NCBI GenBank assembly: GCA_963736705.1
Contig: CAVTPV010000005.1
Location: 5,306-69,305 of the forward strand
Reading direction: 5' to 3'
Length of the DNA: 64,000 bases
Source of the DNA: an uncultured Actinomycetota bacterium
GTDB lineage: Bacteria; Actinomycetota; Thermoleophilia; RBG-16-64-13
Part shown: positions 38,993 to 56,622 of the stretch, in pieces
Position numbering within the stretch: the stretch's first letter is position 1
How the letters are laid out: each line of letters starts with the position of its first letter
Program-made: the position numbers and the translations under genes
Notes under the pieces: generated by a model
Database searches by the model: none
What the model was told of the DNA's origin: nothing
What the model saw: only the letters and a program-made list of their open reading frames with translations

Positions 38993-39650
38993 GTGACCGA
39001 GACTCTACACGAAGTGAAGGAACCGCGCCAGCAGCGCAGCCGCGACTCTCAGGAACGCATCCTGAAAGCCGCCGAGGCCCTCATCAAGAGCAAGGGCTTC
39101 GAAGCGCTCACCACGGCGGAGGTCGTCCGGCGCTCGCGCACGTCCATCGGCACCCTCTATGCCCGCTTCGGCGACAAGACAGCCCTGCTTCACGCAGTGC
39201 AGGACAGAGTGCAGTCCCGCGAGGAAGCGCTGATGCGCGCCCAAGTGGCCAAGGTCGACGTGGGAGCAGCCTCTCCCTGGCGGAAGCCGTCCGGCAACTC
39301 CTGCAGATCAAGCAGATGGTCGGCGAGGGTGACGAGCCGGCTGTTCGAGGCGTTCGTGGTGCACGGCGCCACCGACCCGGTGCTGCGCGCCCAAGGGTAC
39401 CGGCACAAGGCCGTCATGGAAGGGCTCGACGTCGAGATCCTGCTCGCGCCACGCCGGCGAGATCGGCCACGCCGACCCCGAGGACGCCGCCCGCGTGGCC
39501 TCCCGGCTGGCCCAGGCCGCTCAGGAAGAGTACGTGCAGCGTTCCCTGGCCGGAGAGGCATTGCCCGGCACCGCGCCGCCCGAGTTGCTCTTGGAGCGGC
39601 TGGCGGACGTCATCATCGCCTATCTCAAGAACCCGCAGCCCGCGGCGTAG
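38993..39650 (+). CDS. TetR-family transcriptional regulator, about 3 frameshifts
   Basis: 'RQQRSRDSQERILKAAEALIKSKGFEALTTAEVVRRSRTSIGTLYARFGDKTALLHAV' HTH; C-terminal part 'AGEIGHADPEDAARVASRLAQAAQEEYVQRS...LADVIIAYLKNP' in another frame. Confidence 0.65.
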
Positions 39651-39710: not shown

Positions 39711-40892
39711 ATGGAACGCTGGCACACACACGTGCTCCGCGAGAAGATCGACCCCAGCAGCATGCTCATCCAGGGGAACCGGGCGTGCGCTCTCGGGGCC
39801 CTCGACGCCGGCGTCCGCTTCTTCGCCGGATATCCCATCACCCCCAGCTCCGAGATCATGGAAGCCATGGCCGTGCGAGCTGCCCAAGGTGGGCGGCGTG
39901 TTCCTGCAGATGGAGGACGAGATCGCGCTCCATCTGCGCGTGCATCGGGGCGTCGCTGGCCGGGCAGCTGGCCATGACGGCCACCTCGGGGCCGGGCTTC
40001 TCGCTGATGCAGGAGGCCATCGGCTACGCCATCATGGTGGAGGCGCCGCTGCTCATCGTGGATGTGATGCGGGCGGGGCCGTCCACCGGGCGCCCCACCG
40101 CGCCGTCGCAGGGCGACGTCATGCAGGCCCGCTGGGGCACCCACGGCGACCACCCGGCGGTGGTGCTGGCCGCCTCCAACGTGGCCGACATGTACCGGCT
40201 GACCATGGCGGCGGTGCGGTTCGCCCAGCGGTTCCGCACCCCGGTGACCCTGCTGGCCGACGAGGTGGTGGGCCACATGCGCGAGAGCTTCGCCCCGGAG
40301 CTCATCGACCGCTACCGGCTCACCAGCGGCGATTTCGACTTCAGCCCCAGCTACGTCCATCCCGACATGGTGCGCGAGGTGCATCCGCCGCACGTGCTGG
40401 GGTCGGAGCCGCATCCGCACGTGACCGGGCTCATCCACGACGAGACCGGCTTCCCCACCAACGACCCGAAGAAGAGCGAGAAGTTCCTGCGCGAGCTCTA
40501 CGACAAGGTGGGCAACCACCGCGACGAGCTCTGCCTCTACGACGTCAAGAACGAGGGCAAGGGGCGGGTGTGCATCGTGGCGTACGGGTCGTGCGCGCGC
40601 AGCGCCCGGGCGGCCTGGAAGCTGGCCGAGAAGGAGGGGCTGCAGGTGGAGGTGCTCCATCTCTACACGCTGTTCCCGCTGCCGGTGGAGATCATCCAGA
40701 CAGGTGGCCCGGCGGGTGGAGTTCATGCTCATCCCCGAGCTGAACCTGGGACAGTACGCGCGCGAGGTGCGCAAGATGGCCGAGAACTGGACCACGGTCA
40801 TCAGCATGGGCAAGATCGACGGGACGCTCATCACCCCGCGGGAGATCCTCGACCGGGTGACCGAACTTGTTGGGAAGTACGAGAGTGTCTGA
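39711..40892 (+). CDS. korA: 2-oxoacid:ferredoxin oxidoreductase alpha subunit (KorA/OorA-like), at least 3 frameshifts
   Basis: 'LIQGNRACALGALDAGVRFFAGYPITPSSEIMEAMAV' + 'MTATSGPGFSLMQEAIGYAIMVEAPLLIVDVMRAGPSTG.PT...QGDVMQARWGTHGDHP' + 'EVLHLYTLFPLP'. Confidence 0.75.
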
Positions 40893-41871
40893 CGCAGCGG
40901 CGCCGAGGCGCTCGGACGATCGAGCAGTTCCTGCACACGGAGCGGCTGCCGCACATCTGGTGCCCGGGCTGCGGCATCGGCATCGTGACCGGCGCCTTCC
41001 TGCGGGCGGTCGTCGACCTGGGGCTGGAGCGCGAGAAGACCGTGGTGGTCGGGCGGCATCGGCTGCTCCAGCCGGGCCGTCGGCTACATCGACCTGGGGA
41101 CCGTGCACTCCATCCACGGCCGGGCCCTGGCCTTCGCCACCGGCATCAAGATGGCGCGGCCGGACTTCACCGTGGTGGTGCTCACCGGCGACGGGGACGG
41201 CGCGGCCATCGGCGGCAACCACCTCATCCACGCCTGCCGGCGCAACATCGACATCACCTGCATCCTGTTCAACAACCAGATCTACGGCATGACCGGCGGC
41301 CAGGTGTCGCCGCACCATGGAGCCCGGCGACCGGGGCGACCACCGCCCCGTACGGGTCCATCGAGCCGCCCGTTCGATCTCTGCCGGCTGACCGAGGCGG
41401 CTGGGGCGAGCTTCGTGGCCCGCGGTACGGCGGCCAACATCCGGCCTTTGGAGCGGCTGATCAAGCAGGGGATCCAGCATCAAGGGATTCTCGTTCATCG
41501 AGGCCGTGGTGCCCTGCCCCACCGAGTACGGCAAGCGGAACCCGCCCGCCGGGGTGATCGCCATGCTGGACGAGACCAAGGCCCGCTCCGTGTCGGTGAG
41601 CGCGGCGGCCAAGATGCCGGCGGAGGAGCTGGCCGGCAAGATCGTCACCGGCATCCTGCACGAAGACAAGGACGCGCCTGAGTTCCAGACGAGCTACGCC
41701 GCCATCGTCGAGCGGGCGCAGCAGGCTGCTGCCGACGCCGAGCCGGCGCCCAGGCCGCGGCCGCGGCGCCCGGCCGCGCCGGCCAAGAAGGCCGGCAAGG
41801 AGCGCGGCGGACCGCAGGCGACCTCGGCCTCCAGCGACGCGTCGGGCCTGCCCTGTGAGGGCGGGGAATGA
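40889..41871 (+). CDS. korB: 2-oxoacid:ferredoxin oxidoreductase beta subunit (TPP-binding, KorB-like), at least 4 frameshifts
   Basis: 'HIWCPGCGIGIV' + 'GIKMARPDFTVVVLTGDGDGAAIGGNHLIHACRRNIDITCILFNNQIYGMTGGQVSP' + 'FIEAVVPCPTEYGKRN'. Confidence 0.75.
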
Positions 41872-42547
41872 GCACCGGCGGACCGGCGGCCGGCGCCGGC
41901 AGCGCCGCGGACGTCAAGGCCGCGCGGGCGGCGCGCGCCGAGAAAGCGCGCGCCCTGGCGGTCGAGCGAAGCGGCTTCTCGCCACGCGGAGCCTCGTGGA
42001 GGTGCGGTTCGGCGGCAGCGGCGGGCAGGGGGTCATCCTCATGGGCGTCATCCTGGCCATGGCCGGCGCCCGCGACCACCGCTTCGTGGTGCAGACCCAG
42101 TCCTACGGCCCCGAGGCCCGGGGCGGCTACAGCCGCAGCGACGTCATCATCTCCGACTCCCAGATCGACTATCCGGAGCTCGAGCAGGCCGATCTTCTCG
42201 TCGCGCTGTCGCAAGCAGCTGCCGATGAGTACTTCCGCATGCTACGCTCCGACGGTGTGCTGGTCTACGACTCCGAGAACGTGACGGCTGTGCCGCCGTT
42301 CAAAGGGGAGCAGTTCGGCATACCGTTCACCCGCCTGGCGCTGGAAGAGACCGGGCGGCGGCAGACGACGAACATCCTCACCCTGGGGGCCGTCGCGGGC
42401 ATCACCGGCGTGGTGACCAAAGAGGCGCTGCGCAAGGCGATGCTGGTGATGGTGCCGGCGGGGACCGAGGAAGTGAACAGCAAGGCTCTCGCCCGCGGAA
42501 TGGCGCTCGACGCTACCGAATGGCGCAGCGCCGTGACTGGCCGCTGA
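41868..42547 (+). CDS. 2-oxoacid:ferredoxin oxidoreductase gamma subunit, 1 frameshift near 41990
   Basis: 'VEVRFGGSGGQGVILMGVILAMAGARDHRFVVQTQSYGPEARGGYSRSDVIISDSQIDYPELEQADLLVALSQ'. Confidence 0.7.
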
Positions 42548-42604: not shown

Positions 42605-43384
42605 ATGATCGTTGCCGGCATCGACGTCGGAGCCAAGAACGTCCACGCAGTGTTGATCCAGGATGGCGCGGTGCTGGCCAAAGCCACCGTGGCCTCGGGG
42701 TTCGACCAGGAGGAGTCCGCCGAGCGGGGCCTGCAGGAAGCAGCCAAGGTCGGCGGCATCGAGCGGGACGCCATCGCCGCCATCGCGGCCACCGGCGCCG
42801 GGCGCAAAGCCCTGCCCTTCGCCGGACAGCAGCCCACCGAGGTAGCCGCCGACGGCCGCGGCGCCGCGATGCTGCGCCCGGGCGCCCGCACCGTCGTCGA
42901 CGTGGGCGCCGATGAAGCCCGGGCCATCAAGCTGAGTCCCGAAGGCAAGGTCATCGACTTCGCCATCAACGAGAAGTGCGCGGCCGGCGCCGGCGCCTTC
43001 GTGGAGGCCATGAGCCGCGCCCTCGACATGCCCCTCGCCGATTTCGCCAGCTCGTCCCTCGAATCCACGCAGTCCATCCCCATGAACGCCCAGTGCACGG
43101 TGTTCGCCGAGTCCGAGGTGGTCAGCCTCATCCACGCCAACACTCCCCCGGCCGACATCGCCCGCGCGGTGCACGACGCCATGGCCAGCCGCGTGTCGGC
43201 GATGGTGCGGCGCATCGGCGTGGACGACCCGGTGGTGCTGGGCGGCGGCGCGGCCCTCAACGTGGGCTTCGTGAAGTCGCTGTCCGAGGCGCTGGGCGGC
43301 GTCAACGTCGAGGTGCTGCCGGATGCGGAGTATCTGGGGGCGCTCGGGGCGGCGCTGATCGCCTGGGAGACGGCTTCGAGGTAG
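42605..43384 (+). CDS. BadF/BadG/BcrA/BcrD-type ATPase (HgdC-like CoA-enzyme activase), intact 259 aa
   Basis: 'MIVAGIDVGAKNVHAVL' N-terminal actin-fold; cluster-ligand cysteines in 'INEKCAAGAGAF' and 'MNAQCTVFAESEVVSL'; uninterrupted ORF. Confidence 0.8.
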   Translation: MIVAGIDVGAKNVHAVLIQDGAVLAKATVASGFDQEESAERGLQEAAKVGGIERDAIAAIAATGAGRKALPFAGQQPTEVAADGRGAAMLRPGARTVVDVGADEARAIKLSPEGKVIDFAINEKCAAGAGAFVEAMSRALDMPLADFASSSLESTQSIPMNAQCTVFAESEVVSLIHANTPPADIARAVHDAMASRVSAMVRRIGVDDPVVLGGGAALNVGFVKSLSEALGGVNVEVLPDAEYLGALGAALIAWETASR

Positions 43385-43396
43385 GGCGTCGGCATC

Positions 43397-44059
43397 ATGG
43401 TCGGACATCACCCCAAACTCGTGTGCTTTGACCTCGACGGCACGGTGATGCTCTGCCCCAACTCCCTGCAGTTTCTGCTCCATCTCGAACCATGCACCTC
43501 CGGAGATCCTCGCCGATATCGATCGACGCGAGACACAGCCGTGAAGTGCACTGGGTCGCGGCCGACTACGAGCGGGCTCCAGTATGTCGCCGGTCTCCCT
43601 GTCGCAGCTATCGAAGACGAGCATCGACCGTGAACTGCGCACGATCGGCGAACCTCACGTTGGTTCTGGAGACTCTTCGCAGTGCCGGCATGCTGACGGT
43701 GCTCCTGACTTCCGGACCTGTCGAAGTCGCGGAGGCAGTCGCGAGGCGCTTCTGCGTTCGGACGTTGTGCTGGGAAGCGAGTTCGAGACCTCCAGAGAAA
43801 GCCCCTCGGTCTATACCGGCCGCATCGTCAAGACATCTTGGCTCTGCCGGCAAATTGGAGGTCGCTGGAACGGGCGTGCGATGACCTGGAGCTTACCTTG
43901 GACGATTGCGTTGCTGTTGGAGACGGTGAGTCAGACATCGATCTGTTTCGGGTCGTCCGCACGTCAATCGGTTTGAACCCTTCTCCTCTGGTAGCCGAGA
44001 TGGTAGACCACGTGGTTCAAGGGAACGATCTCTCCGCCATCCTGCCGATCATCCTTTGA
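43397..44059 (+). CDS. HAD-superfamily phosphatase (SerB-like), at least 4 frameshifts; lower-GC segment
   Basis: 'KLVCFDLDGTV' motif I; '...LTLDDCVAVGDGESDIDLF' motif IV; ~58% GC against ~68% in the flanks. Confidence 0.5.
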
Positions 44060-44233
44060 CTCGCCGCTACAGTGGCGAGTACGACTCGTCGTCCTCGTCG
44101 GACGTCCATTCTTCAGAGGAGCCATCACCCCAGTCTGGCAGCGTCGAGCGGACAGGTTCTTGGCCCTTCTGACCCCCAGCCATTCTCCGACTTTGGTCGT
44201 AGCCCGGACCCCCTGTAGTACACTAACCCGACG

Positions 44234-45496
44234 ATGACCGAGCCCCAACAGCACTTCTGGCGATGGAGTGAGAAGACCTATCAGGCCCCCGACCTCGACT
44301 GGCGGGCGCGCCTCTGCCATCACCGTGGGCATCGACGTGGGGTCGGTCAGTTCGCAGGCCGTCATCCTCGCCGACGGCAAGCTTCTCGCCTTCAACTCCA
44401 CCCGCACCGGCTCGTCCAGCCCCGACAGCGCCGTGCGCGCCTTCCGCGGCGCCAGCCGAGCCCCTCGGCCTGACGCTCGACGACGTCTCCTACGCGGTGG
44501 GCACCGGCTACGGCCGGGTCAACGTGCCCTTCGCCGACCGGACCATCACCGAGATCGCCTGCCACGCCCGGGGCGCCAACTACATGGGCGGCCCCAGCAT
44601 CCGCACCATCCTCGACATGGGTGGCCAGGACTGCAAGGTCATCCGCATCGACGAGCGCGGCAAGGTGCTGAACTTCATCATGAACGACAAGTGCGCGGCC
44701 GGGACCGGCCGGGGCATGGAAGTCATCGCCGACGTGCTGTCGGTGCCCATCGAGGACATCGGGCGGCGGTCGTTCGAGATCGACGAGGAGCCCGCGGCGG
44801 TGAGCAACGTCTGCACCGTGTTCGCCAAGTCGGAGGCCACCTCGCTGCTGCGCGCCGGCTGGAGCGTCGACAAGGTGCTCGCCGCCTACTGCGCGGCCAT
44901 GGCCCAGCGGGTGGCCGGCCTCATCGAGCGGATGCAGGTGGAGCGCGAGTTCTTCATCACCGGCGGCATCGGCAAGAACATCGGGGTGACGCGGCGCATC
45001 GAGCGGCTCATCGGGGTGGAAGCGGTCAAGCTGCCCGCCGACTCGGTGCTCGATCCGCAGATCGCCGGCGCCCTGGGCGCGTCGCTCTTCGCCCATTCGC
45101 TGTACCGCAAGGCCCAGAAGGAGGCGCGCGGCGGCGCGGTCGGCGGCACGGGCAACGGCGGCGCGGCCGAACCGGCCGGCGAAGCGCGGGGTCACGGGCT
45201 GATGATCGCCAACTACGGCTACGAGGACGGCTCCGGCTTCTACTACATCACGATCGACACCGATGTCTGCGTCGACTGCGCGGAGCACGGCTGCACGAAG
45301 GCCTGTCCCGGGCAGGTCTTCGCCATCGAGATGGACGACTACGACGATCTCGTCGCCGTGGTCGCCGAAAGCTCCCGGAAGCGGCTGCGCGAGCTCTGCT
45401 CCGTGTGCAAGGGCCAGAACGGCGTCGGGCGGCACCGAGCGCAAGCTGCCCTGCACCGACGCGTGCCCGGGCGGCGCCATCCGCCACAGCTGGTAG
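44234..45496 (+). CDS. Second HgdC/BcrA-like activase ATPase with C-terminal Gly-rich linker and 2x[4Fe-4S] ferredoxin domain (apparent natural fusion), several frameshifts
   Basis: 'ITVGIDVGSVSSQAVIL', 'NDKCAAGTGRGMEVIADVL', 'SNVCTVFAKSEATSLL'; then 'GGAVGGTGNGGAAEPAGEARG' linker; then 'CVDCAEHGCTKACP' and 'CSVCKG...CTDACPGGAI'; no stop separates the ATPase from the ferredoxin part in its frame. Confidence 0.6.
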
Positions 45497-45503
45497 GCCG
45501 GCG

Positions 45504-46700
45504 GTGGAAGTCCGGATCGACGGCATCCGCGTCTCCGTGCCGGAAGGCGCCACCATTCTCGAGGCCTGCGATCTGGCCGGCCGCTACGTCCCCCGTCTGT
45601 GCTCCTATCCCGGAGCTGGGATGCTCGTGCGAGCTGGGGGTCTGGTGCGGACTGTGCGCGGTGCGAGATCGAGGGCGGTCGGCCATCGTCGCCGATCCGG
45701 TGCCCGTGCTCGCCTGCTCGACGCCCGCGCGAGCCGGGCATGGTGGTCACCACGTCCGGGCCGGCGCTCCACTCCGTCGCGTCTGCACCGCCTGGCGGCG
45801 ATCCTGGATCACCATCCCCACATCTGTCTCAGCTGCCCCGATCGGGATGGCTGCAGCAGGGAGGAGTGCACGTACGGGATGCCCGAGGAGGCGCGGTGCT
45901 GCGCCGAGTTCGGGCGCTGCGAGCTCGGCAAGCTGGTGGCCTACATCGATCCCGGGCTGCAGACTGCGGCGGTGGGCCGCGGTCGTGCCGCGGGATGCCC
46001 ATGAAGAAGGGCGTATCCGCCGGGAGCCGGGACTGTGCATCGGCTGCGGCAGGTGCGTGCTGGTCTGCAACAGCTCCGGCATGCCGGGAAGGCCCTGCAG
46101 CTGGAGGACATCGTGGGCCCGGCGTCGGCCCGGGCGGCTCTGGCCGCCGGCAGGAACGGCGTGGCTCCGAACGCCGGCACCTCTGCCGGGCCATGCCCGT
46201 CAAGGGCACGCTTCGGGCCTCAGGCTGCACGTTCTGCGGGCAGTGCGTGATGGTCTGTCCCACCGGCGCCGTGACCGCGCCCGGCGAAGGCGGGCGCGCG
46301 CTGGCTGCAGGGCTGGCGCAAGAAGGTCCGTCTGGCGGAGCCCGTGCTGCCGCCCGAATCCTGGCGACTGCTCACCGAGGACGAGTTGGCGGCGCATCCC
46401 GGCCGTGCCCGGGGTCTTTCAGATAGCCGACGCCACCGGGCAGGTGCTGCGCATCGGCGGGGTGGCCGATCTTTCGCACGGGGTAGCCGCGGCCCTCACC
46501 GAGGCCTGCTGCCGCTCCGCCGCCGGTCTCTGGTTCGAGCGGGCCGAGCTCTATCACCCAGCGGGAGAGCGAGCTGCTGGCCCGCTTCGCCCAGGAGCAG
46601 GGGCATCTGCCGCCCGGGAACGACCTGGGCGACGATCTGTTCGGCGACGATCTCTTCGACGACGACCTGGACTGGGCAGTCGCGCTCGACTGGACCGCCC
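45504..46700 (+). CDS. Multi-cluster Fe-S protein resembling the N-terminal module of NuoG/HndD/FdhA (2Fe-2S + His-Cys3 4Fe-4S + 2x 4Fe-4S ferredoxin) with an uncharacterised acidic C-terminal region; about 5 frameshifts in the first 300 nt
   Basis: GTG start 45504 'MEVRIDGIRVSVPEGATILEACDLAGRYVPRLCSYP'; 'G.C..CEIEGG'; 'ILDHHPHICLSCPDRDGCSREEC'; 'GLCIGCGRCVLVCNS'; 'GCTFCGQCVMVCPTGAV'; C-terminal segment with 'GVFQIADATGQVLRIGG' and 'DDLFGDDLFDDDLDW'. Confidence 0.5.
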
Positions 46701-47331
46701 GCAGCGCGCCCGGACGCCCCTCGTCATCGGCGTCATCTCCGACACCCACGGCCATCTCTACCCCGAGGTGGCGAAGCGCCTCGAAGGGGTGCGACCACAT
46801 CATCCACGCCGGCGATGTCGGCACCTCCGAGGTCCTTCGCGCGCTGCGCCGCATCGCGCCGGTGACGGCCGTGCGCGGCAACGTGGACATGGGAGGCTGG
46901 GCGGACGCCCTGCCCTCCCGCGCCGAGGTGGAATTGGGAGGCGTCTGCATCGTGGTGGGGCACATCTCGCCCCGGCCGGACGGCGCCGGCAGCGCGCGGG
47001 CAGCCGGTGGTCGTGGTGGCCGGTCACAGCCACGTCGCCGCCAAGGAGGAGCGCGCCGGGGTGCTCTACCTCAACCCCGGATCCGCGGGGCCGCGCCGTT
47101 TCGGGCGGCCGCGAACGCATGGCCCGGCTGGAGATCTGGCCGCCGCGGGAAGGGGCACAGCCCGGCGAGGCCTGGAGCATGCCCTGGGTAGTGGCCGAGA
47201 TCGTCACGGCTCGAGGGAGAGTAGGCCGCACCGGGCGGACGGCCCGAGTCGCCGGTCGGCGAGCGGCCGTCAGCCGCCCGACGGGCCGGGCGCCGGTCAT
47301 CGCTACAGGCTCTTGGCCACGTGAGCGGTGA
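46690..47331 (+). CDS. YfcE/MJ0936-family metallophosphoesterase; no in-frame start codon seen (start lost to an indel, or fused to the upstream ORF)
   Basis: 'LVIGVISDTHGHL...' motif I; 'CDHIIHAGDVGTSEVL' motif II; 'VTAVRGNVD' motif III; 'VVVAGHSHVAAKEERAGVLYLNPGSAGPRRFG' motifs V/VI; assembled from three frames. Confidence 0.5.
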   Translation: MDRPQRARTPLVIGVISDTHGHLYPEVAKRLEGVRPHHPRRRCRHLRGPSRAAPHRAGDGRARQRGHGRLGGRPALPRRGGIGRRLHRGGAHLAPAGRRRQRAGSRWSWWPVTATSPPRRSAPGCSTSTPDPRGRAVSGGRERMARLEIWPPREGAQPGEAWSMPWVVAEIVTARGRVGRTGRTARVAGRRAAVSRPTGRAPVIATGSWPRER

Positions 47332-48511
47332 GTTCCCCCAGCCGGTAGGTGTAGCTGCCCATCTCGTTGTCGTACCAGCCGAAGATCTTGACGTGGGTCA
47401 CCGGGATGCGGTGCTGGTGCCGTCTGATGCGCACATCCACGAAGCCGGTGCGGGTGTGGGTCTCGACGCCTTCGATGGTCACGGCCGCGTCTTCGCCCAG
47501 CATGTCGCGGGACACGTTCTGTTCCGTGCTGAACTTCAGCAGGCCCTTGGACTCGCCCGCGGCCGCTTCCGCGTAGATGGCGTTGATGGCTTCGCGGTCG
47601 ATGTCCACGGTCCCGTCCAGGCGCTCCTCGGCCTGGAAGGTCACGTTGAGGACGATGAGGCTGACGGCGTCGGTGGGGATGCGCACCGAGTCGGCCATGA
47701 AGCCGATGCGGGCGATCTCGGGCATGACCTGCTCGAGAGCCTTGGCCGCGTTCGTCGAGGTGATGACGATGTTGTTCATGCCCGAGCGGGTCTTGCGCAG
47801 GTCGGTGGCGTTGGCCGCCGGCACCGCGTCCAGCAGCGGCTGGCTGTTGGTGACCGCGTGGATGGTGCTCATGCCGGCCGTGATCATGTTGCGGGTGAGG
47901 TCGCGGGCCAGGAGCGGCTTCATCATGTGGGCGAGGCCCGTGGTGGTGCAGGAGGCCGCCGACACGATCTTGTGCTTGCCCGGATCGTAGTCGAGGTGGT
48001 TGATCCCGTGGATAAGGACGGCCGTGTCATCCGGCAGCGGGACACCCTTCACCTTGCTCTTGAACGGGGAGCTGATCACGACCGCCCGGGCTCCGGCGGC
48101 CAGGTGGCCGCGGAGCGCGCCTTTGCCGTCGTTGCCTTCCGCGTACGGATCGCGGAACTTGCCGGTGCAGTCCACCACGAGCGAGACGTTGTATTCCCGC
48201 CAGGGGATGTCCTTGGGGTCGCGCGCGGTGCGCAGGAAGATGACGTCCTTGCCGTGGACCTTGCAGAGGCCCTTGTCCTCGTCGATCACCTGCAGGTCGC
48301 GCTTGCCGGTGCAGCCGTCCATCCACTGGTGGAGCTGGCCGTAGGTGCTGTCTTTGGCGAGGTACTCGAGGACGGACTGGAGGGAGGTCCCCACCGGCCG
48401 GCCGACGTTGACCACGAAGGTGTCGAAGTCATCGTGAGCCAGGTGGTACCAGAGGGTCAACTTGCCGATGCGGCCAAGTCCGTTGATTCCCAGTGTCCGA
48501 GGAGCAGCCAT
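47303..48511 (-). CDS. Glyceraldehyde-3-phosphate dehydrogenase family protein (divergent, 402 aa, intact)
   Basis: 'LGINGLGRIGKL' NAD-binding motif; catalytic 'SAASCTTTGLAHMMKPL' (compare canonical SNASCTTNCLAP); extra insertions relative to a standard ~335-aa GAPDH. Confidence 0.75.
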   Translation of the reverse strand: MAAPRTLGINGLGRIGKLTLWYHLAHDDFDTFVVNVGRPVGTSLQSVLEYLAKDSTYGQLHQWMDGCTGKRDLQVIDEDKGLCKVHGKDVIFLRTARDPKDIPWREYNVSLVVDCTGKFRDPYAEGNDGKGALRGHLAAGARAVVISSPFKSKVKGVPLPDDTAVLIHGINHLDYDPGKHKIVSAASCTTTGLAHMMKPLLARDLTRNMITAGMSTIHAVTNSQPLLDAVPAANATDLRKTRSGMNNIVITSTNAAKALEQVMPEIARIGFMADSVRIPTDAVSLIVLNVTFQAEERLDGTVDIDREAINAIYAEAAAGESKGLLKFSTEQNVSRDMLGEDAAVTIEGVETHTRTGFVDVRIRRHQHRIPVTHVKIFGWYDNEMGSYTYRLGELTAHVAKSL

Positions 48512-48650
48512 CTTCCGGTCCTTTCGCCGTTGATACGACCTGTCATGCGGCCGTGAACACGACCCTTCTAACACTACCACCGGTCTCGCGCCCGCTTCAC
48601 GCGCGCGTGCGCGACACCGTGCCGGTGGGTGAACCAAGGTGCTCCTGCGG

Positions 48651-51600
48651 CTACAGCACCCGGGCGATGGTGGGGATGCGCCCCAGGAAGATGTTCCCGG
48701 TCCGCCCGTCGATGGAGAGCCAGTCTCCCGCCTTGAGCTCGTGGCCGGCCAGGCGGGCTTCGCCGCGGTGCTCGTCCACCTCCAGGGCCCGGCAGTCGAC
48801 CACGGCGGTCTTGCCCAGGCGCTTGGCGGTGACGGCCGCATGTGAGGTGGCCCCGCCGCGGGCGGTCAGCAATCCCGACACCCGGGTGATCATGGCGATG
48901 TCCTCGGGCACCGTGTCGGGCCGCAGCAGCACGATGGGCTCGCCCGGCTTCTCCGCCAGCAAGGCGTCGATCTGGGCCATGTTCATGGCCACCCGTCCGG
49001 AGTAGGCGCCGCCGGCCACGCCCATGCCGACGGCCGCCGGCAGGACCGAAGCCCTTGGCCGAGGTGTCGAAGTACGGGGAGTCGGTGGTCTGCTCCTGTA
49101 CCATGGCCCGCTTCTGCAGGATGTACAGGTCCTTGGGGTCGTCCGATTCGAAGGTGAACTCGATCTCCTGCGGGTCGTGCTCGCGGAAGCCCACCAGGTC
49201 GCGGGCCACGTCCAGCAGGGCCTGGTAGACGCCGGGATGGTCCTTCTCCAGAGAATGCTCGATGCCCTTGTAGGTCGGGCTGCCCAGCCTCTGCGCCTCG
49301 GACACCGGCAGCGGGAACACCAGTCCGGCCACGAGGTCCTCGCCCTGGCTGCGGGCGGTGAAGTCTCCGAACAGCCGCACCTGGTTGCTGTGCGGCTCCA
49401 GCGGGTTGCGCGTGAAGGTGACCCCCGACCCGGATTCCCGGCTGAGGTTGCCGAACACCATGCGCTGGATCACCACCGCGGTGCCCCACTCCTCCGCCAC
49501 GCCCAGATACTGCCGGTAGAGCTTCGCTTCGGGCGAATCCCAGGAGCCCAGCACCTTGCGGATGCAGGCCACCACCTGGCGGAAGGGGTCGTCGGTGTAG
49601 CGCACCCCGAGTTCCCGGCCCCGCTGCTTGTAGGCGAAGGCCATCTCCTTCATGTGCTCCGGCAGGAAGTCCGACTTGCGCTCCACGCCGTAGCGGGCCT
49701 TGAACTCCGCGATGATGGCGTCGAACACGTCGCGGTCGATCCCCGAGGCCATGGCCCATGTCTGCAGGAAGCGGCGGTAGGAGTCCCAGGCGGCCCACTC
49801 GAAGCCCGGTTTGCGCGACAGCGCCTCCGCCAGCTTGTCGTTCAGGCCCACGTCCACGAACGTGGTCATGAGGCCGGGCATGGAGATGGCCGCGCCCGAG
49901 CGGATGGACAGCGTCAGCAACCGGCTGGGATCGCCCAGGCGGAGCCCCGTCTCCTTCTCCAGGTCGTCGATGGAGCGGCGCACCCGATCGAGCGTGTCGT
50001 CGAAGAGGGGGCGGTGGGCCATGGCCGGCATGGCGCTGAAGAGCTCGGTGGTGAGGATGAAGCCCTGCGGCACCCGCTGCTTGTAGGCAGCCATCTGCTT
50101 GAGGCCCAGTCCCTTGAAGCCCAGCGTCATCTGGTCGTCGGTGGGCGGGTTGGCCTTGTGGATGCGCGAGACCAGGCGCTCCGGGTCGTAGTTCATCATC
50201 CGGGTGAGCGCCGTGTTGCCCAGCTTGTCGGTGAGCATGGAGATCTGCCGCAGCACAGTGGACATGTAGCGGTCCAGGGATTGCATCCCCAGAGCCGACA
50301 CCAGGACCTCGCGCAGCACCATCTCGGCGACGGCGTCCGCGGACATGCACCGGGCCACGCACTGCCGGGGATCGTGCTTGAGCACGGTGTGCAGCACCTG
50401 GTCGTGGCTGAGGATGGAGGTGCGCGAGAGCTGGGTGACCGATCCCATGAAGAACTGGAAGACGTTCTGATACTGGTGGAAGGTGAAGTTGTGGCTGCTG
50501 AAGCTGGACTCGAGCAGGCGCAGGTTGGCGCCCAGGTTGCGGGAGTCCACGCCGTCGGCGGCCAGGGCGCGCTCGAAGCGGCGGATGGCGTCGGCCATGC
50601 GGCGCAGCGTGTCGCGGGTGACGTAGGGCTCCACTCCGACGGTCACGAGGTCGTCCAGCAGCACGGCCACCAGCCGCTCCACCCGGAACGACAGTCCCAG
50701 CGCGTCGAACTTGGGCTCGTTGTAGTTGCCGTACATCGACGGGATGCCCGCCGCGATGTGCCGCTTCTGGTAGATGTTCTCCACGGCCACCGACGGAGCC
50801 GCGCTGAGCACGATCTTCTGCAGCTCCTCCAGCACGGTCAGTGAGGCGTCGAGCAGGCGGTCGCGGGTGGCCGCGTCCGGGTCGCTCCGCCAGGCTTCGA
50901 GCGCCTTGAGGAAGCGCGCCCGGACCTTGGCGTCGAGTTGCAGGTGGTGGTCGACCGCGCTGCTGATGTTGTCCGTGGACAGCGAGTACTTCTCGGCCAG
51001 CAACTGGTGGGTGCGCAGCATGAGGGCCACCCTGCGGCGGGCGGTCTCCCGGGCCTCGTCGCCGTCCGGCAGCGTGTCGAGGAGCTGGACCAGCGCCTCG
51101 GGGGTGAGCTTGACGAGGTGGTCGAGCAGCTCGCGGACCGCTCGCCGTCCAGGCCCGAGGCACGCGCGGCCAGCTCCTGCAGCATCTCGTGCGGCTGCTC
51201 CGCCCAGTCCTGCTCCTCGCGGACCGCGTCGAACGTGTTGGCCGATAGGTAGGGCTGCAGAGGCGTCGGATCGAGCGTCACCCAGTAGCCGAGGATCTCC
51301 CGGCTGAAAGCCACCAGCCGGTTGGACGACTCGGCGTGCGACTGCTTGCGCACGAAGTGCATCAGGGTGTCCTGCCGCTGGCAGATCTCGTCGAGCTCGG
51401 TGGACACGGCCCGCAGCTCGCCCTCGGCGCCCACGTCGTTGAAGTAGACGGGGAAGGCGCGCAGCAACTGCTTGGCCACGAAGTAGATGGGCTTGATGTC
51501 GGCGTTGAGGAAGCGGGTGACGTCGCGCTGGAACAGGTCGGTGTCGGCGATGTAGACGCCGCCCAGCCGGAGCTGCACGTTGAGGGCCGCCGCCAGGCGC

Positions 51601-52818
51601 TCGTAGAGCGCGGGGTTCGACTCGATGATGTGCATCCAGCAGCGGATCTTCGGCAGGTGGAAGGGGTTGACCACCGTCTCCCACTCGTCGGTGGCGCCCT
51701 GGATCTCCGGATACTGGAACTTCCAGGACAGCACGTCCTCGATGAGGTGGTCGGCCGCCGCCACGTTGCCCGCCTGGCCGATGGCCATGCCGATGGCCTC
51801 GTAGCACTGGAAGCGCATCAGCAGGAACTGGTTGTCGCGCTGCCGGAAGAAGCGGGTGAGGCGGGCCAGGATGGTGTCCACGTCCATGTGCTGCTCGGGC
51901 GCCATGAGCTGCCGCACCACGCCCAGCAGGTCCACCATGACCTCGTTCTGCCGGTAGCCCAGGGTGTCGTCCTTGAGGAAGTACAGGCAGACGGCGAAAC
52001 GGTCCTCGATGTCGTCGATGCGGAACACCTGGTCGATCGCCCGGTCGAGGAGCGTGGAGAAGGGCGGAAGGTCGGAGGAGAGCAGCTTCTCGTCGGGTGC
52101 AGACTCGGCCCGGCGGATGAGCGCGGCCACGGCCTCGGGCGCCAGTTCGGTGAAGCGGGCGGCCACCGCGGGCTTGTCGGTGAGTTCGGCCTCGGGCGAC
52201 ATGGCCCACGCCGGCAGCGGCAGCCGCTCGGCCAGCAGGCGGTAGCCCAGCAGCAGCAAGGAGCGGAACAGGCCGGAGAACGAGGGCTCCAGCGCCGGGC
52301 GTTTGGCGGCCTGGCGCACCAGGTTGTGGATGAGGGTGTCGCGCTCCAGGAAGGCGAACGGCCGGAGCGGGAGTTCGCGCTGCAGCGTCTCGGCGATGCC
52401 GAGCAGGGGCTCGTCGTACGAGTCGGAGTGCGGCCCCCCGAGCGCGGTGGTGCTCCAGGTGATGAGCTGGCGCAGCAGCAGCGAGGTCTGCTGGGTGGTG
52501 AGCGGGGTGTCGAGCAGGTCGAGCACCAACTCGGACAGCAGCGTGAACAGCTCGCGTGCGGTTCTCAGAACGCTCGAAGTAGCTCCAGTTGCGGAGCAGG
52601 ATGGTCTGGAACCCGTCGATGAGCAGATCCACGTTGCGGAAGTTGTGGAAGTACTCGCTGAGCGTCTCCAAGAGCGGCGTCCGCACCCCGTAGTAGCCCT
52701 GCACCGCGTCCACCAGAGGCAGATAGCGCGGGGGGATGACCACCTCTTGGGCCGTGTTGCCGATGTTCGCCCGCAGGGCGTCGGAATCGAGGGGGATCTG
52801 GATGCCGATGGGCTCCAT
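48651..52818 (-). CDS. Giant (~1390 aa) PPDK/PpsA-like dikinase: ~900-aa uncharacterised N-terminal region + PPDK-type nucleotide-binding (PEP/pyruvate-binding family) domain + C-terminal PEP-utilising phosphohistidine domain; 3 frameshifts
   Basis: 'LLTLSIRSGAAISMPGLMTTFVDVGLND...' and 'VVIQRMVFGNLSRESGSGVTFTRNP' (PPDK N-terminal ATP-grasp module); 'LLTARGGATSHAAVTAKRLGKTAVVDC' (phosphohistidine mobile domain); no TIM-barrel PEP/pyruvate domain. Pieces in ORFs 48574..53862 (middle), 50838..52529 and 48651..49025; the ATG overlaps the corC stop (cTGATGg). Confidence 0.65.
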
Positions 52819-55276: not shown

Positions 55277-56622
55277 CCCCTCTGTGCGCTTGTCGACCAC
55301 CCGCTGGGCTTTGCCTTCTTGCCGCTCGATGGAGCCGGGCTCCTTGAAGTTCACGCCCACGTTGACGCCGATGATGTCCTTGATGTTCTTCTGGATGTTG
55401 GACTTCAGTAGCAGCATCTTCTCGTGCTCGGCGAAGGTGGCGACGTCGTCCATCGAGAGGATCGCCTCGGACACCTCGTGATAGAGATCCTGCTTGATCT
55501 CCACTTCCACCATCAGGTTGTCCATGGCGCCCTTGCGGGTGACGATGAGCCGGTAGTGCGGCTCCACCTGCGGCGACATGAGCAGCACCGACTCCACCTG
55601 GCTGGGGAAGACGTTGACGCCGCGGATGATGAGCATGTCGTCGGTCCGGCCCGATACGCGGGCCATGCGGGTGTTGGTGCGGCCGCAGATGCAGGGTTCG
55701 GTGGTAAGGCTGGTGATGTCGCCCGTGCGGTAGCGGATGAGCGGGAAGGCTTCCTTGGTGAGAGTGGTGAACACCAACTCACCCACGGAGCCCTCGGGCA
55801 GCACTTCGCCGGTCTCCGGGTCGATGATCTCGGGCAGGAAGTGGTCGTCGTTGATGTGCAGCCCGTTCTGGGCCTCCACGCACTCGCAGGACACGCCCGG
55901 GCCGATGATCTCGCTGAGGCCGTAGATGTCGCAGCCCTTGATGTTCCACTTCTTCTCGATGTCGGCGCGCATGGCGTTGGACCAGGGCTCGGCGCCGAAC
56001 ACGCCCACCTTGAGCGGGAACTTCGTGACGTCGATGCCCTGCTGCTGGGCCACGTCGTAGAGGTAGAGCATGAAGCTCGGGGTGCAGCAGATGACCGTGG
56101 TGCCGAAGTCCTGCATGAGCATGATCTGGCGCTGGGTGTTGCTGCCCGAGATGGGGATGACCGCCGCGCCCAGGCGCTCCGCGCCGTAGTGGGCGCCCAG
56201 GCCGCCGGTGAACAGGCCGTAGCCGTAGGCCACCTGGACCACGTCGTCGGCGGTGGTGCCCGCCCCGGCCAGGGCGCGGGCCATGACGTCGGCCCACATG
56301 GCGATGTCGTTCTTGGTGTAGCCCACGGTGGTCGGCTTGCCGGTGGTGCCGGAGGAGGCGTGGATGCGCACCACGTCGCGCAGCGGCACGGCGAACAGCC
56401 GAAGGGATAGTTGTCGCGCAGGTGGTACTTGCGGGTGAAGGGCAGGAGCGGCAGATCCTGGATGCCGCGGATCTTGTCCGGCGAGACGCCCTGCTCGTCA
56501 AAGAGGGATCTATAGAAGGGGACCCGATCGTAGACACGTTTGGCCAGGGAGACGAGGCGCTCGCTTTGCAGCTTCTCGAGTTCCTTGCGGTCCATGCATT
56601 CGTGTTCGCGGTCGAAGATCAT
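55277..56622 (-). CDS. paaK: Phenylacetate-CoA ligase family (PaaK / coenzyme F390 synthetase-like) adenylate-forming enzyme, 1 frameshift near 56395
   Basis: '[21 protein letters not shown]...[20 protein letters not shown]' + '[27 protein letters not shown]...[25 protein letters not shown]...RYRTGD'. Confidence 0.75.

What the first reader, a model, noticed from the sequence alone, without database searches (positions are those of the whole stretch)
42605..47331. korABG-linked pair of HgdC/BcrAD-type ATPases (one fused to a ferredoxin) plus a NuoG-N-terminal-like Fe-S protein and a YfcE phosphoesterase, with no HgdAB/BcrBC catalytic partner
Directly after an intact-looking 2-oxoacid:ferredoxin oxidoreductase set (korA/B/G, 39711-42547) come two paralogous BadF/BadG/BcrA/BcrD-family ATPases. 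The first (42605-43384) is an intact 259-aa protein with the two conserved cluster cysteines. The second (44234-~45195) continues without a stop through a Gly-rich linker into a 2x[4Fe-4S] ferredoxin (to 45496). Next is a GTG-initiated protein whose first ~260 aa reproduce the 2Fe-2S / His-Cys3 / 2x4Fe-4S cofactor module of NuoG/HndD/FdhA, followed by an acidic, uncharacterised C-terminal region. A YfcE-type metallophosphoesterase closes the block.

In all characterised systems these ATPases (benzoyl-CoA reductase BcrAD, 2-hydroxyacyl-CoA dehydratase activators, double-cubane-cluster reductases) inject ATP-energised low-potential electrons into an HgdAB/BcrBC-type partner. None is present within 20 kb on either side. 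The electron source (Kor + ferredoxin) and the ATP-driven 'archerase' module are there, but the acceptor is non-canonical. This would be an undescribed ATP-dependent reductase arrangement, or an activase–ferredoxin fusion servicing a distant partner. PaaK (55277-56622) and UbiX (60887-61486) nearby hint at aromatic-acid metabolism.
Basis: partly seen in the sequence, partly recalled or inferred. Interest (0 to 1): 0.8.

Follow-up and report, generated by a model that had tools for sequence, protein, structure and literature searches.

The report
Benzoyl-CoA reductase electron module without catalytic subunits
This operon encodes the electron-supply and ATP-driven "booster" half of a Bzd-type benzoyl-CoA reductase, but the catalytic half is missing from the locus. 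The arrangement is real and conserved in a clade of uncultured Thermoleophilia-like bacteria, while the reported activase–ferredoxin fusion is a sequencing-error artefact.

Summary
The genes are there, but the window is a noisy assembly, with roughly one frameshift per 400 bp in almost every gene.

- **Gene identities.** The two ATPases are orthologues of BzdP and BzdQ. A 98%-identical clean relative passes the NCBIfam BzdQ equivalog cut-off.
- **The fusion is an artefact.** In every relative whose junction reads cleanly, including that 98% relative, BzdQ and a 97-aa ferredoxin are separate genes. They overlap by 1 nt in the closest two (TGATG). The window carries the same TGATG, but an indel just upstream shifts the frame.
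- **The NuoG-like protein.** It belongs to a conserved 360–400-aa family. It matches the 845-aa ferredoxin-oxidoreductase gene that follows bzdNOPQ-fd in many phyla, minus the flavin/NAD(P)H module.
- **No catalytic partner nearby.** No HGD-D (BzdN/O, HgdA/B) gene lies in the 64-kb window or within ±10 kb in five related loci.
- **How the arrangement arose.** Sister lineages carry bzdN-O-P-Q-fd-FeS. At the orthologous locus there is also a second HGD-D pair, and a deletion scar marks its loss here.
- **Still functional.** P and Q remain under purifying selection (dN/dS 0.10–0.18).

Best reading: Kor → ferredoxin → BzdPQ, serving a partner encoded elsewhere. A new acceptor is not excluded. This is a new variant of a known system.

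The parts
38993..39650 (+). tetR-family regulator directly upstream of korA (frameshifted in this assembly)
   Evidence: The ORF translation has a TetR-type HTH N-terminus. TetR_N genes sit at the same position on the + strand in L119 and L120.
39711..40889 (+). korA, 2-oxoacid:ferredoxin oxidoreductase alpha subunit (read in 3 frames here)
   Evidence: tblastn with L007 KorA gives 79-87% identity in three frames. L007 KorA passes NCBIfam PRK08659 (464.8 vs cut-off 411).
40919..41733 (+). korB, beta (TPP/[4Fe-4S]) subunit (3 frames)
   Evidence: tblastn with L007 KorB gives 55-84% identity in three frames. The best NCBIfam match is the 2-oxoglutarate:ferredoxin oxidoreductase beta subunit, below its cut-off.
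41855..42547 (+). korG, gamma subunit
   Evidence: ORF 41855-42547. 69% identity to L007 KorG. POR family in relatives.
42605..43384 (+). BzdP-like ATPase subunit, intact, 259 aa
   Evidence: Pfam BcrAD_BadFG E 7e-46. NCBIfam CoA_E_activ 207 bits. 67% identical to BzdP of the canonical bzdNOPQ cluster in L006. Its cysteines align to the HgdC ligands and its best PDB matches are MbdQ, HadI and HgdC.
43397..44059 (+). HAD-family hydrolase, an inserted passenger gene (at least 3 frameshifts here)
   Evidence: Hydrolase_3 hit on the last fragment. Atypically low GC3. Intact 217-aa HAD gene at the same place in the 98% relative. Only a remnant remains in L120.
44234..45202 (+). BzdQ-like ATPase subunit. 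Frame changes near 44308, between about 44456 and 44497, and at about 45185-45190. The true stop is TGA 45200-45202.
   Evidence: tblastn with P0004 matches in three frames at 86-98% identity. P0004 passes the TIGR03192 benz_CoA_bzdQ equivalog cut-off (417.7 vs 380.2). C-terminal 'GVTG*' lies in the +1 frame.
45202..45496 (+). 97-aa 2x[4Fe-4S] ferredoxin (BzdM position). A separate gene, with one frameshift at about 45410-45438.
   Evidence: Matches 97-aa ferredoxins P0122 and P0129. A separate 93-98-aa gene follows BzdQ in the relatives' gene tables, either directly or, in L119, after one small ORF. 55-63% identical to the ferredoxin after bzdQ in canonical clusters.
45504..46650 (+). ~380-aa multi-cluster Fe-S protein: 2Fe-2S, a His-Cys3 4Fe-4S site, four further invariant Cys, 2x4Fe-4S and a C-terminal DUF7508. 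It is a short form of the BzdV-position oxidoreductase. Read in several frames here.
   Evidence: Family of 309 full-length homologues. Invariant Cys/His ligands. Pfam Fer2_4, Fer4 and a weak DUF7508 hit. AF2 model pLDDT 81, with the N-terminal part matching the hydrogenase F-domain and NuoG. Aligns to residues 6-256 and 742-835 of the 845-aa L022 protein.
46680..47225 (+). YfcE-family metallophosphoesterase (3 frames here). Ancestral neighbour of the locus.
   Evidence: tblastn with the L001 and L007 orthologues gives 60-80% identity. TIGR00040 yfcE and Metallophos_2 hits for the L003 orthologue. The same gene precedes the GAPDH and PPDK-like genes in L121, where 9 kb of other genes separate it from the Fe-S gene.

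Best explanation
The block is the electron-donor and electron-activation half of a Bzd-type class I benzoyl-CoA reductase (BCR) system, detached from its catalytic half.

Proposed mechanism:
1. KorABG oxidises a 2-oxoacid, probably 2-oxoglutarate, and reduces the 97-aa 2x[4Fe-4S] ferredoxin. The 380-aa multi-cluster Fe-S protein may act as a wire or adaptor.
2. The ferredoxin reduces the [4Fe-4S] cluster that bridges the BzdP/BzdQ heterodimer.
3. ATP binding and hydrolysis lower the potential of that electron.
4. The electron is injected into a transiently docked catalytic dimer of the HGD-D family (BzdNO-like or HadBC-like) encoded elsewhere in the genome.

Shown here: the gene identities, their conservation, the operon structure, the absence of a partner nearby, and the evolutionary derivation from partner-linked loci. 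Inferred: the direction of electron flow, the Kor substrate, and the existence and identity of the distal partner. The BzdQ-ferredoxin 'fusion' is an assembly indel.
For: **Orthology**
- A 98%-identical BzdQ passes the TIGR03192 equivalog cut-off.
- Window P, Q and ferredoxin are 67%, 85% and 63% identical to those of L006. The L006 neighbours pass the BzdN and BzdO equivalog cut-offs (569 vs 454 and 598 vs 449 bits).

**Canonical context**
- The order N-O-P-Q-fd followed by an Fe-S oxidoreductase recurs across the ~40 BzdO loci recovered from many phyla, wherever the contig reaches that far.
- The 380-aa protein is that oxidoreductase minus its Fer4_20/Pyr_redox_2 module.

**Derivation**
- In a BzdQ tree the Kor-linked clade is sister to the NO-linked Thermoleophilia. 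All outgroups are NOPQ.
- L121 carries P-Q-fd-FeS, a ~9-kb stretch holding a second HGD-D pair, and then YfcE, GAPDH and a PPDK-like gene. These are the same anchors as here. L119 keeps a 52-aa scar of the gene that follows that HGD-D pair.

**Function retained**
- dN/dS within the Kor-linked clade is 0.10-0.18 for P and Q.
- The cluster cysteines are conserved.
- korG and P overlap by 4 nt in L001 and L119.

**Literature**
- KorAB regenerates the ferredoxin for BCR in Thauera, and kor genes sit in BCR clusters (PMC9973337, PMC5736913).
- BzdM is the ferredoxin and BzdV a putative NADPH:ferredoxin oxidoreductase (PMC5658619).
[quoted passage not shown] This makes genomic separation plausible.
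- HGD-D pairs with no ATPase within 10 kb occur elsewhere (L117).
Against: No partner was found.
- There is no HGD-D gene in the 64-kb window or within ±10 kb in L001, L003, L007, L119 and L120.
- No HGD-D homologue among the 120 listed hits sits on any large contig of this clade, which reach 1.77 and 3.56 Mb. This comparison rests on contig lengths.
- BzdO-pattern scans of GTDB species genomes and of JGI metagenomes found only three Thermoleophilia-like BzdO loci. L008 and L009 have bzdN upstream and bzdP downstream, L096 is a contig-end fragment, and none stands apart from P/Q. BzdQ of this clade has dozens of JGI clusters.
- Both neighbouring partner gene sets appear to have been lost from this locus.
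- No downstream benzoyl-CoA pathway genes lie nearby.

These negatives have limited power. The scans need exact 8-residue words, only the best 120 hits are listed, and whole genomes could not be searched.
Confidence: 0.58

Rival explanations
1. The clade has truly lost all HGD-D partners. The Kor-ferredoxin-BzdPQ(-FeS) module now delivers ATP-boosted, very low-potential electrons to a new, non-HGD-D acceptor. This would be an undescribed ATP-dependent reductase system.
For: Both flanking partner gene sets are gone from the locus, yet P and Q stay under purifying selection. No BzdO-type or L004-type HGD-D could be tied to the clade's large contigs or to its abundant metagenome representation. 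There is new translational coupling to korG.
Against: No candidate acceptor is conserved in the operon: the Fe-S protein is missing in L003, and YfcE is only an ancestral neighbour. BzdQ remains 80-85% identical to BzdQ of canonical NOPQ clusters, which argues for an unchanged docking partner type. All characterised members of this ATPase family work with HGD-D proteins (PMC11971306). The absence of HGD-D genome-wide was not shown.
Confidence: 0.15
2. The module works with Kor itself. ATP-boosted electrons from BzdPQ reduce the low-potential ferredoxin, or Kor directly, to drive reductive carboxylation (2-oxoacid synthesis).
For: korG-bzdP translational coupling. Citrate synthase is a conserved divergent neighbour. 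No other acceptor is in sight.
Against: No upstream electron donor is evident, because the Fe-S protein lacks the NAD(P)H/flavin module. There is no precedent. In the known systems Kor is the donor for BCR (PMC9973337).
Confidence: 0.07
3. A decaying relic. After the catalytic genes were lost, bzdPQ-fd-FeS are non-functional leftovers, and the frameshifts are real pseudogenisation.
For: Many frameshifts in BzdQ, the ferredoxin, the Fe-S protein and YfcE in this window. Mobile cargo is inserted between P and Q in several loci.
Against: Frameshifts hit housekeeping genes equally: Kor, citrate synthase, the TPP enzyme and the PPDK-like gene. Relatives at 90-98% BzdQ identity have intact genes. 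dN/dS is 0.10-0.18 across a deep clade. All cluster ligands are invariant.
Confidence: 0.05
4. The BzdQ-ferredoxin fusion is genuine in this strain.
For: There is no stop in frame from 44497 through 45420 in the raw sequence. One database protein, P0001, also reads through.
Against: The conserved 'GVTG*' end and the TGATG stop/start overlap are present in the +1 frame. The window differs by a 2-nt gap from L120 just upstream. The 98% relative has separate genes. P0001 comes from an equally noisy contig and contains out-of-frame sequence.
Confidence: 0.03

Closest known systems
Bzd-type class I benzoyl-CoA reductase system of Aromatoleum/Azoarcus sp. CIB (BzdNOPQ, ferredoxin BzdM, BzdV, plus KorAB)
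   Same: A BzdQ equivalog and a BzdP-like second ATPase. A small 2x[4Fe-4S] ferredoxin gene directly after bzdQ, followed by an Fe-S oxidoreductase gene. A 2-oxoacid:ferredoxin oxidoreductase as ferredoxin-regenerating enzyme. The PQ module is expected to dock only transiently with the catalytic dimer (PMC11971306, PMC5658619, PMC5736913).
   Different: No bzdN/bzdO in the operon, the 64-kb window or ±10 kb of relatives. korABG takes their place upstream and is translationally coupled to bzdP. The BzdV-position protein lacks the Fer4_20/Pyr_redox_2 (NAD(P)H-flavin) module. No bzdW/X/Y pathway genes are nearby. Direct homology of the 845-aa protein to Azoarcus BzdV itself was not tested.
Thauera aromatica BcrCBAD-Fdx with KorAB (2-oxoglutarate:ferredoxin oxidoreductase)
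   Same: The electron chain 2-oxoglutarate → Kor → ferredoxin → ATP-hydrolysing two-subunit module with a bridging [4Fe-4S] cluster. kor genes are linked to the reductase genes (PMC9973337).
   Different: The Bcr type forms a permanent heterotetramer and has BcrA/BcrD-type ATPases. Here the ATPases score far below the BcrA and BcrD equivalog cut-offs, and the catalytic BcrB/C equivalents are missing.
Activators of 2-hydroxyacyl-CoA dehydratases (HgdC, HadI) and the double-cubane-cluster protein reductase
   Same: The same ATPase fold and the same two cluster cysteines. They act as separate proteins that dock transiently. In sister lineages the same P/Q pair sits near a HadBC-like HGD-D pair that has no activator of its own.
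   Different: Those activators are homodimers of one gene product encoded next to their dehydratase or DCCP. Here there are two diverged paralogues (~35% identical) of BzdP/BzdQ type and no HGD-D neighbour.
N-terminal Fe-S (F-cluster) module of NuoG/Nqo3, HndD/HydA and FdhA
   Same: A 2Fe-2S site, a His-Cys3 4Fe-4S site and 2x4Fe-4S, in the same fold (Foldseek E 1e-12 to 1e-10 over ~265 residues).
   Different: No hydrogenase H-domain and no molybdopterin domain. Instead it carries a ~100-aa C-terminal DUF7508 domain and an acidic tail, plus four additional invariant cysteines (C120, C130, C131, C137).

Membership tests
Bzd-type class I benzoyl-CoA reductase (BzdNOPQ) | BzdQ subunit meeting the curated equivalog model TIGR03192 | tested here: met
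   P0004, 98% identical to the in-frame part of the window gene, scores 417.7 bits against a cut-off of 380.2. The window copy itself is frameshifted.
Bzd-type class I benzoyl-CoA reductase (BzdNOPQ) | A second, paralogous ATPase subunit (BzdP) with cluster-binding cysteines | tested here: met
   Intact 259-aa BcrAD_BadFG protein. 67% identical to BzdP of the canonical L006 cluster. Its cysteines align to the HgdC ligands. No BzdP-specific model appeared among the NCBIfam hits.
Bzd-type class I benzoyl-CoA reductase (BzdNOPQ) | Catalytic BzdN and BzdO subunits (HGD-D family) encoded with P and Q | tested here: not met
   tblastn with BzdN/O (L006) and a HadBC-like pair (L004) finds nothing in the window or in L001, L002, L003 and L007. 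BzdN/O and the HadBC-like pair of L121 find nothing in L119 or L120. Presence elsewhere in the genome could not be tested.
Bzd-type class I benzoyl-CoA reductase (BzdNOPQ) | ATP-dependent reduction of benzoyl-CoA to the dienoyl-CoA | not testable with these tools
   Requires enzymology.
BzdM-type electron-donor ferredoxin | Small 2x[4Fe-4S] ferredoxin encoded directly after bzdQ | tested here: met
   97 aa with eight cysteines and weak Fer4_9/Fer4_10 hits. Homologous (46-67%) to the gene after bzdQ in the canonical clusters long enough to include it. Homology to Azoarcus BzdM itself was not tested.
BzdV-like NAD(P)H:ferredoxin oxidoreductase (845-aa form after bzdM) | N-terminal Fer2_4 plus 2x4Fe-4S module and C-terminal DUF7508 | tested here: met
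   P0145 residues 3-252 and 271-366 align to L022 residues 6-256 and 742-835. Pfam domains.
BzdV-like NAD(P)H:ferredoxin oxidoreductase (845-aa form after bzdM) | Fer4_20 plus Pyr_redox_2 (GltD-like flavin/NAD(P)H) module | tested here: not met
   Absent from all listed homologues, which are about 290-410 aa long. Present in L022.
2-hydroxyacyl-CoA dehydratase activator (HgdC/HadI type) | Single-gene homodimeric activase encoded next to HgdAB/HadBC | tested here: not met
   Two diverged paralogues, ~35% identical to each other, and no HGD-D neighbour. The CoA_E_activ domain model is met.
2-oxoacid:ferredoxin oxidoreductase, three-subunit KorABG type | Alpha, beta (TPP) and gamma subunits | tested here: met
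   The window matches L007 KorA/B/G at 55-87%. L007 KorA passes PRK08659. KorB and KorG best match 2-oxoglutarate/2-oxoacid models below their cut-offs. Substrate specificity is not testable.
NuoG / FdhA / [FeFe]-hydrogenase | Catalytic molybdopterin or H-cluster domain after the Fe-S module | tested here: not met
   Only the N-terminal ~120-250 residues match these models, far below their cut-offs. Fold matches cover ~265 residues only. Full-length conservation at ~380 aa rules out a truncated pseudogene.
YfcE family phosphodiesterase | Metallophos_2 / TIGR00040 match | tested here: met
   The L003 orthologue scores 95.8 bits against a cut-off of 56.25. The window copy is 60-80% identical to the L001 and L007 orthologues, in three frames.

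The most novel reading that the evidence does not exclude
A whole clade of uncultured Thermoleophilia-like bacteria has deleted both catalytic HGD-D gene sets from this locus. It has nevertheless kept Kor-ferredoxin-BzdPQ under selection because the ATP-driven module now feeds a non-HGD-D acceptor, for example driving Kor-type reductive carboxylation or another Fe-S enzyme. That would be the first 'archerase' of the BCR/HAD family working outside that family.
Probability: 0.15. Interest if true: 0.85.

Novelty: new variant of a known kind. Interest (0 to 1): 0.5.

Why it matters
Class I benzoyl-CoA reductases and their relatives are the only known enzymes, besides nitrogenase-like systems, that use ATP to push electrons beyond the normal biological redox range. 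Every studied ATPase module of this family is encoded with its catalytic partner.

Here a diversified and environmentally common clade keeps the ATPase pair, its ferredoxin and a ferredoxin-reducing Kor in one tightly coupled operon, after the neighbouring catalytic genes were lost. Two outcomes are possible, and one genome-wide HMM search would tell them apart:
- If a distal partner exists, the Bzd-type PQ module behaves as a free-standing, shareable activase. This fits the predicted transient PQ-NO complex.
- If no partner exists, there is a new acceptor class for ATP-driven low-potential electron transfer.

There is also a practical lesson. Apparent gene fusions in noisy long-read MAGs, and in the protein databases built from them, can be artefacts.

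Tried and rejected
**Readings rejected**
- A true BzdQ-ferredoxin fusion. Rejected on the frame analysis and on the clean relatives.
- The Fe-S protein as a truncated nuoG/fdhA pseudogene. Rejected: it is a conserved full-length family with invariant ligands.
- The Fe-S protein as the missing acceptor. Unlikely: it also occurs in canonical NOPQ clusters (L006, L009) and is absent in L003.
- YfcE as a specific component. Rejected: it is a synteny anchor also present in L121, 9 kb away from the Fe-S gene.

**Searches for a partner that found none**
- tblastn of four HGD-D queries against the window and related loci found nothing.
- A homologue search with the L004 HGD-D, combined with matching of contig lengths, showed co-location only with the 78-85% BzdQ group, not the Kor-linked group.
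- An accession-series comparison of NCBI HGD-D proteins with the Kor-linked BzdQ accessions gave no shared genome.
- BzdO scans of GTDB genomes and JGI metagenomes found no Thermoleophilia-like BzdO locus separate from P/Q.

**Dead ends**
- The ferredoxin has no solved-structure relative by sequence.
- The López-Barragán 2004 bzd paper could not be retrieved.

**Not attempted**
- Separate modelling of the DUF7508 domain.
- Modelling of a P-Q heterodimer.

Full report
**1. State of the sequence**

The window is about 68% G+C. A GC3 frame plot shows the coding frame changing repeatedly inside single genes. I ran tblastn with clean orthologues from related contigs. KorA, KorB, BzdQ and YfcE are each read in three frames. 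The ferredoxin and citrate synthase are read in two. The Fe-S protein is read in several, and a TPP enzyme is also split. Only BzdP, KorG and a GAPDH-like gene are intact.

Housekeeping genes are hit as often as the genes of interest. Relatives at 90-98% protein identity are intact. I therefore read these as assembly indels from a noisy long-read contig, not as pseudogenes. Related contigs named 'contig_NNNNN' from ENA assemblies ERZ250395xx show similar noise (L002, L120).

**2. Checking the observation**

- 42605-43384 is an intact 259-aa BcrAD_BadFG ATPase. Its two cysteines align with the cluster cysteines of HgdC. My own knowledge identifies these as Cys127 and Cys166.
- A second ATPase starts at 44234.
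- A 2x[4Fe-4S] ferredoxin ends at 45496.
- A GTG-initiated Fe-S protein starts at 45504.
- A YfcE-type phosphoesterase follows. It ends near 47225, not at 47331.
- korABG lies upstream at 39711-42547, preceded by a tetR gene.

No HGD-D family gene occurs anywhere in the 64 kb. tblastn with a BzdN/BzdO pair and a HadBC-like pair from relatives found nothing. These same queries detect each other at 26-28% identity, so the family would have been detected if present.

**3. The fusion is an artefact**

In the raw sequence the frame of 44497 runs on through 'AAEPAGEARGHGLMIANYG...' into the ferredoxin. The closest homologues end differently. P0004 (98% identical) ends '...AEPADGAGVTG', and P0009 (90%) ends '...SGVTGA'.

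In the window, 'GVTG' followed by TGA (45200-45202) is present in the +1 frame. That stop overlaps the ferredoxin ATG at 45202. A DNA alignment shows a 2-nt gap in the window relative to L120, just before GGGGTCACGGGCTGATG.

The gene tables of the relatives agree.
- On the 98% relative's contig, BzdQ is at 2356-3312 and the 97-aa ferredoxin at 3312-3605, a 1-nt overlap. L120 has the same overlap.
- The two genes are also separate in L001, L003, L007 and the P0007 contig.
- The only 'fused' database protein, P0001, comes from the equally noisy L002 and contains out-of-frame sequence.

**4. What the genes are**

*ATPases.* BzdQ of the 98% relative passes the curated equivalog model for 'benzoyl-CoA reductase, bzd-type, subunit Q' (417.7 vs 380.2 bits). 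The first ATPase matches only the general activase model. The closest solved structures are MbdQ/MbdP of 3-methylbenzoyl-CoA reductase, HadI and HgdC.

*A canonical relative.* L006 carries a BzdQ 85% identical to the window's. Its gene order is HGD-D, HGD-D, P, Q, 93-aa ferredoxin, 383-aa Fe-S protein. The two HGD-D proteins pass the BzdN and BzdO equivalog cut-offs.

*The wider pattern.* A scan of GTDB species genomes with that BzdO recovered 44 loci from Anaerolineae, Zixibacteria, Gemmatimonadota, Elusimicrobia, Acidobacteria, Ignavibacteria and others. Wherever the contig reaches far enough, the order is N-O-P-Q-ferredoxin, usually followed by a large Fe-S gene.

*The Fe-S protein.* In L022 that large gene encodes 845 aa with Fer2_4, 2x4Fe-4S, Fer4_20, Pyr_redox_2 and DUF7508 domains. 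The window's protein family aligns to its residues 6-256 and 742-835. It is therefore the same protein without the flavin/NAD(P)H module. By position and predicted function the 845-aa protein corresponds to BzdV, described as a putative NADPH:ferredoxin oxidoreductase (PMC5658619). I did not test homology to Azoarcus BzdV itself.

The short form is a real family.
- It has 309 homologues, nearly all full length.
- Invariant ligands define a 2Fe-2S site (C33, C48, C51, C70), a His-Cys3 site (H102, C106, C109, C115), four further cysteines (C120, C130, C131, C137) and two ferredoxin-type 4Fe-4S sites.
- An AlphaFold model (pLDDT 81) matches the Fe-S domain of [FeFe]-hydrogenases and NuoG over about 265 residues.
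- Judging by matching contig lengths, it shares contigs with BzdQ in at least 14 cases.

It is not a nuoG remnant.

**5. Three arrangements in the Thermoleophilia-like lineage**

| Type | Loci | Arrangement |
|---|---|---|
| A | L006, L008, L009 | bzdN-O-P-Q-fd-FeS, then (seen in L006 and L009) a sensor kinase/LytTR regulator and an operon of ECH, ApbA-like reductase, CoA ligase and a second, HadBC-like HGD-D pair |
| B | L004, L005 | P-Q-fd followed by that second operon; no N/O and no Fe-S gene |
| C | window, P0004 and P0007 contigs, L001, L002, L003, L007, L119, L120 | (tetR)-korABG-P-[variable insert]-Q-fd-(FeS)-(yfcE), then convergent GAPDH-like, ~1400-aa PPDK-like, CNNM, (LOG) and PaaK-like genes |

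L121 also carries P-Q-fd-FeS followed by that second operon. Its sequence upstream of P was not available, so I cannot say whether it is type A.

Type C comprises nine independent loci with BzdQ identities of 74-98%. The Fe-S gene is missing in L003. In L119, yfcE was detected only by tblastn. None has an HGD-D gene within ±10 kb.

korG and bzdP overlap by 4 nt in L001 and L119. This indicates co-translation.

The P|Q intergenic site carries different cargo in different loci. It holds a HAD gene here, PemK/MazE in L001, an ABC transporter with NTP_transf_5 and a ParA-like gene in L007 and L002, and HicA in L119.

**6. How type C arose**

In a neighbour-joining tree of BzdQ, the Thermoleophilia-like sequences form one clade. 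Type C is sister to types A and B, and every outgroup has the NOPQ arrangement. Linkage to N/O is therefore ancestral.

L121, from a 1.14-Mb contig, shows the intermediate geography. Its order is P, Q, fd, FeS, an 84-aa gene, kinase, regulator, ECH, ApbA-like, ligase, HGD-D, HGD-D, a 6PGD-like gene and a nitroreductase. These are followed by YfcE, GAPDH, the PPDK-like gene and CNNM, the same downstream anchors as type C. Orthology across these anchors is 45-70%.

In type C locus L119, a 52-aa fragment homologous to the N-terminus of the 6PGD-like gene sits right after the Fe-S gene. I read this as a deletion scar. Type C is then this locus after the loss of about 9 kb that included the second HGD-D pair, with korABG in the position held by bzdNO in type A. 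YfcE is an old neighbour brought adjacent by the deletion, not a designed part of the system.

**7. Is the module still in use, and where is the partner?**

*Still in use.* Within type C, dN/dS is 0.10-0.18 for both ATPases, at dS of 0.5 to above 1.5. This is comparable to 0.07-0.11 within type A. All cluster ligands are kept. The module is functional.

*No partner found.* I could not find a partner for type C.
- The 120 listed hits of the search with the HadBC-like protein share contigs only with the 78-85% BzdQ group. None sits on the large type C contigs (378 kb, 518 kb, 930 kb, 1.77 Mb, 3.56 Mb).
- NCBI accession series of the HGD-D proteins and of the type C BzdQ proteins do not overlap.
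- BzdO scans of GTDB genomes and of JGI metagenomes recovered BzdO at 52-61% identity from many phyla, but only three Thermoleophilia-like loci. L008 and L009 have the N-O-P-Q order and L096 is a contig-end fragment. Type C BzdQ, by contrast, is represented by dozens of JGI clusters.

*Limits of these negatives.* They are suggestive, not conclusive. The scans need exact 8-residue matches, only 120 hits are listed, and I could not search whole genomes.

[quoted passage not shown] HGD-D pairs with no ATPase within 10 kb exist in other lineages (L117).

**8. Mechanism I commit to**

Kor oxidises a 2-oxoacid and reduces the small ferredoxin. The ferredoxin reduces the [4Fe-4S] cluster bridging BzdP and BzdQ. 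ATP hydrolysis then drives that electron into a catalytic HGD-D-type dimer encoded elsewhere.

The Kor-ferredoxin-BCR chain is established for Thauera, and kor genes occur in benzoate clusters (PMC9973337, PMC5736913). The short Fe-S protein probably acts as an electron wire or docking adaptor. It is dispensable in L003.

I put about 0.58 on this overall. I am much more confident in the module's identity than in the distal partner. Rivals are:
- a new non-HGD-D acceptor (0.15);
- ATP-driven reversal of Kor (0.07);
- a decaying relic (0.05);
- a genuine fusion (0.03).

**9. Verdict**

The finding is real in outline but over-read in two details: the fusion, and NuoG-like novelty. It is a new variant of a known system. 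It is the electron-supply and activation half of a Bzd-type reductase, fused into an operon with Kor and orphaned by loss of the adjacent catalytic genes, yet conserved. That makes it moderately interesting. A simple genome-wide HMM search would decide whether it is merely a split system or something new.

Noticed in passing
window 43397-44059: A HAD-family hydrolase gene is inserted between bzdP and bzdQ. Its GC3 is about 0.6, against about 0.9 in the neighbouring genes. It has at least 3 frameshifts here, is intact (217 aa) in the 98% relative, and is reduced to a ~140-nt remnant in L120.
   Followed up: partly
L001 9258-9819; L007 5128-9996; L002 7250-9861; L119 7402-8278: The bzdP|bzdQ intergenic site is an insertion hot spot in the Kor-linked clade. 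It carries PemK/MazE in L001, an ABC transporter with NTP_transf_5 and a ParA-like gene in L007 and L002, and a HicA toxin in L119.
   Followed up: no
window 47306-48511 (-) and about 48574-52800 (-): A long (402-aa) GAPDH-like gene and a ~1400-aa PPDK_N/PEP-utilizers protein are conserved convergent neighbours of the block in all Kor-linked loci and in L121. Their function and any link to the block are unknown.
   Followed up: no
whole window: There is about one frameshift per 400 bp in nearly every gene, including the FAS II genes at 13.3-19.6 kb and the GlcD/GlcF-like oxidase at 1.4-4.5 kb. The contig needs polishing before any gene-level claim is made.
   Followed up: partly
protein database cluster of P0009; P0001 from L002: 97-aa ferredoxins are clustered with 325-aa BzdQ proteins, and a 456-aa read-through 'fusion' is on record. 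Noisy assemblies have seeded artefactual fusion proteins in the public collection.
   Followed up: partly
L029 9639-13629; L031 16211-20217; L042 16428-21098; L048 16156-20184: Gemmatimonadota and Ignavibacteria loci carry a second, divergent N-O-Q-P-like set (22-42% identity) directly after the BzdV-like gene. This is a paralogous ATP-dependent reductase of unknown substrate.
   Followed up: no
L117 8806-11212 (and L118): An HGD-D pair is embedded in a beta-oxidation-like cluster with thiolases, crotonases, two CoA ligases and IorAB-like genes. There is no ATPase within 10 kb.
   Followed up: no
L004 13726-19760; L006 9242-14860; L121 5383-11236: A conserved operon encodes ECH, an ApbA-like reductase, a CoA ligase and a HadBC-like HGD-D pair under a LytTR two-component system, with no activase of its own. 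It is presumably served by the nearby BzdPQ pair, which would then be a shared activator.
   Followed up: partly
L001 4757-5449 (-) vs window 38993-39650 (+): The 230-aa minus-strand gene called in L001 is an antisense artefact of the plus-strand tetR gene. TetR_N is called on the plus strand in L119 and L120.
   Followed up: yes
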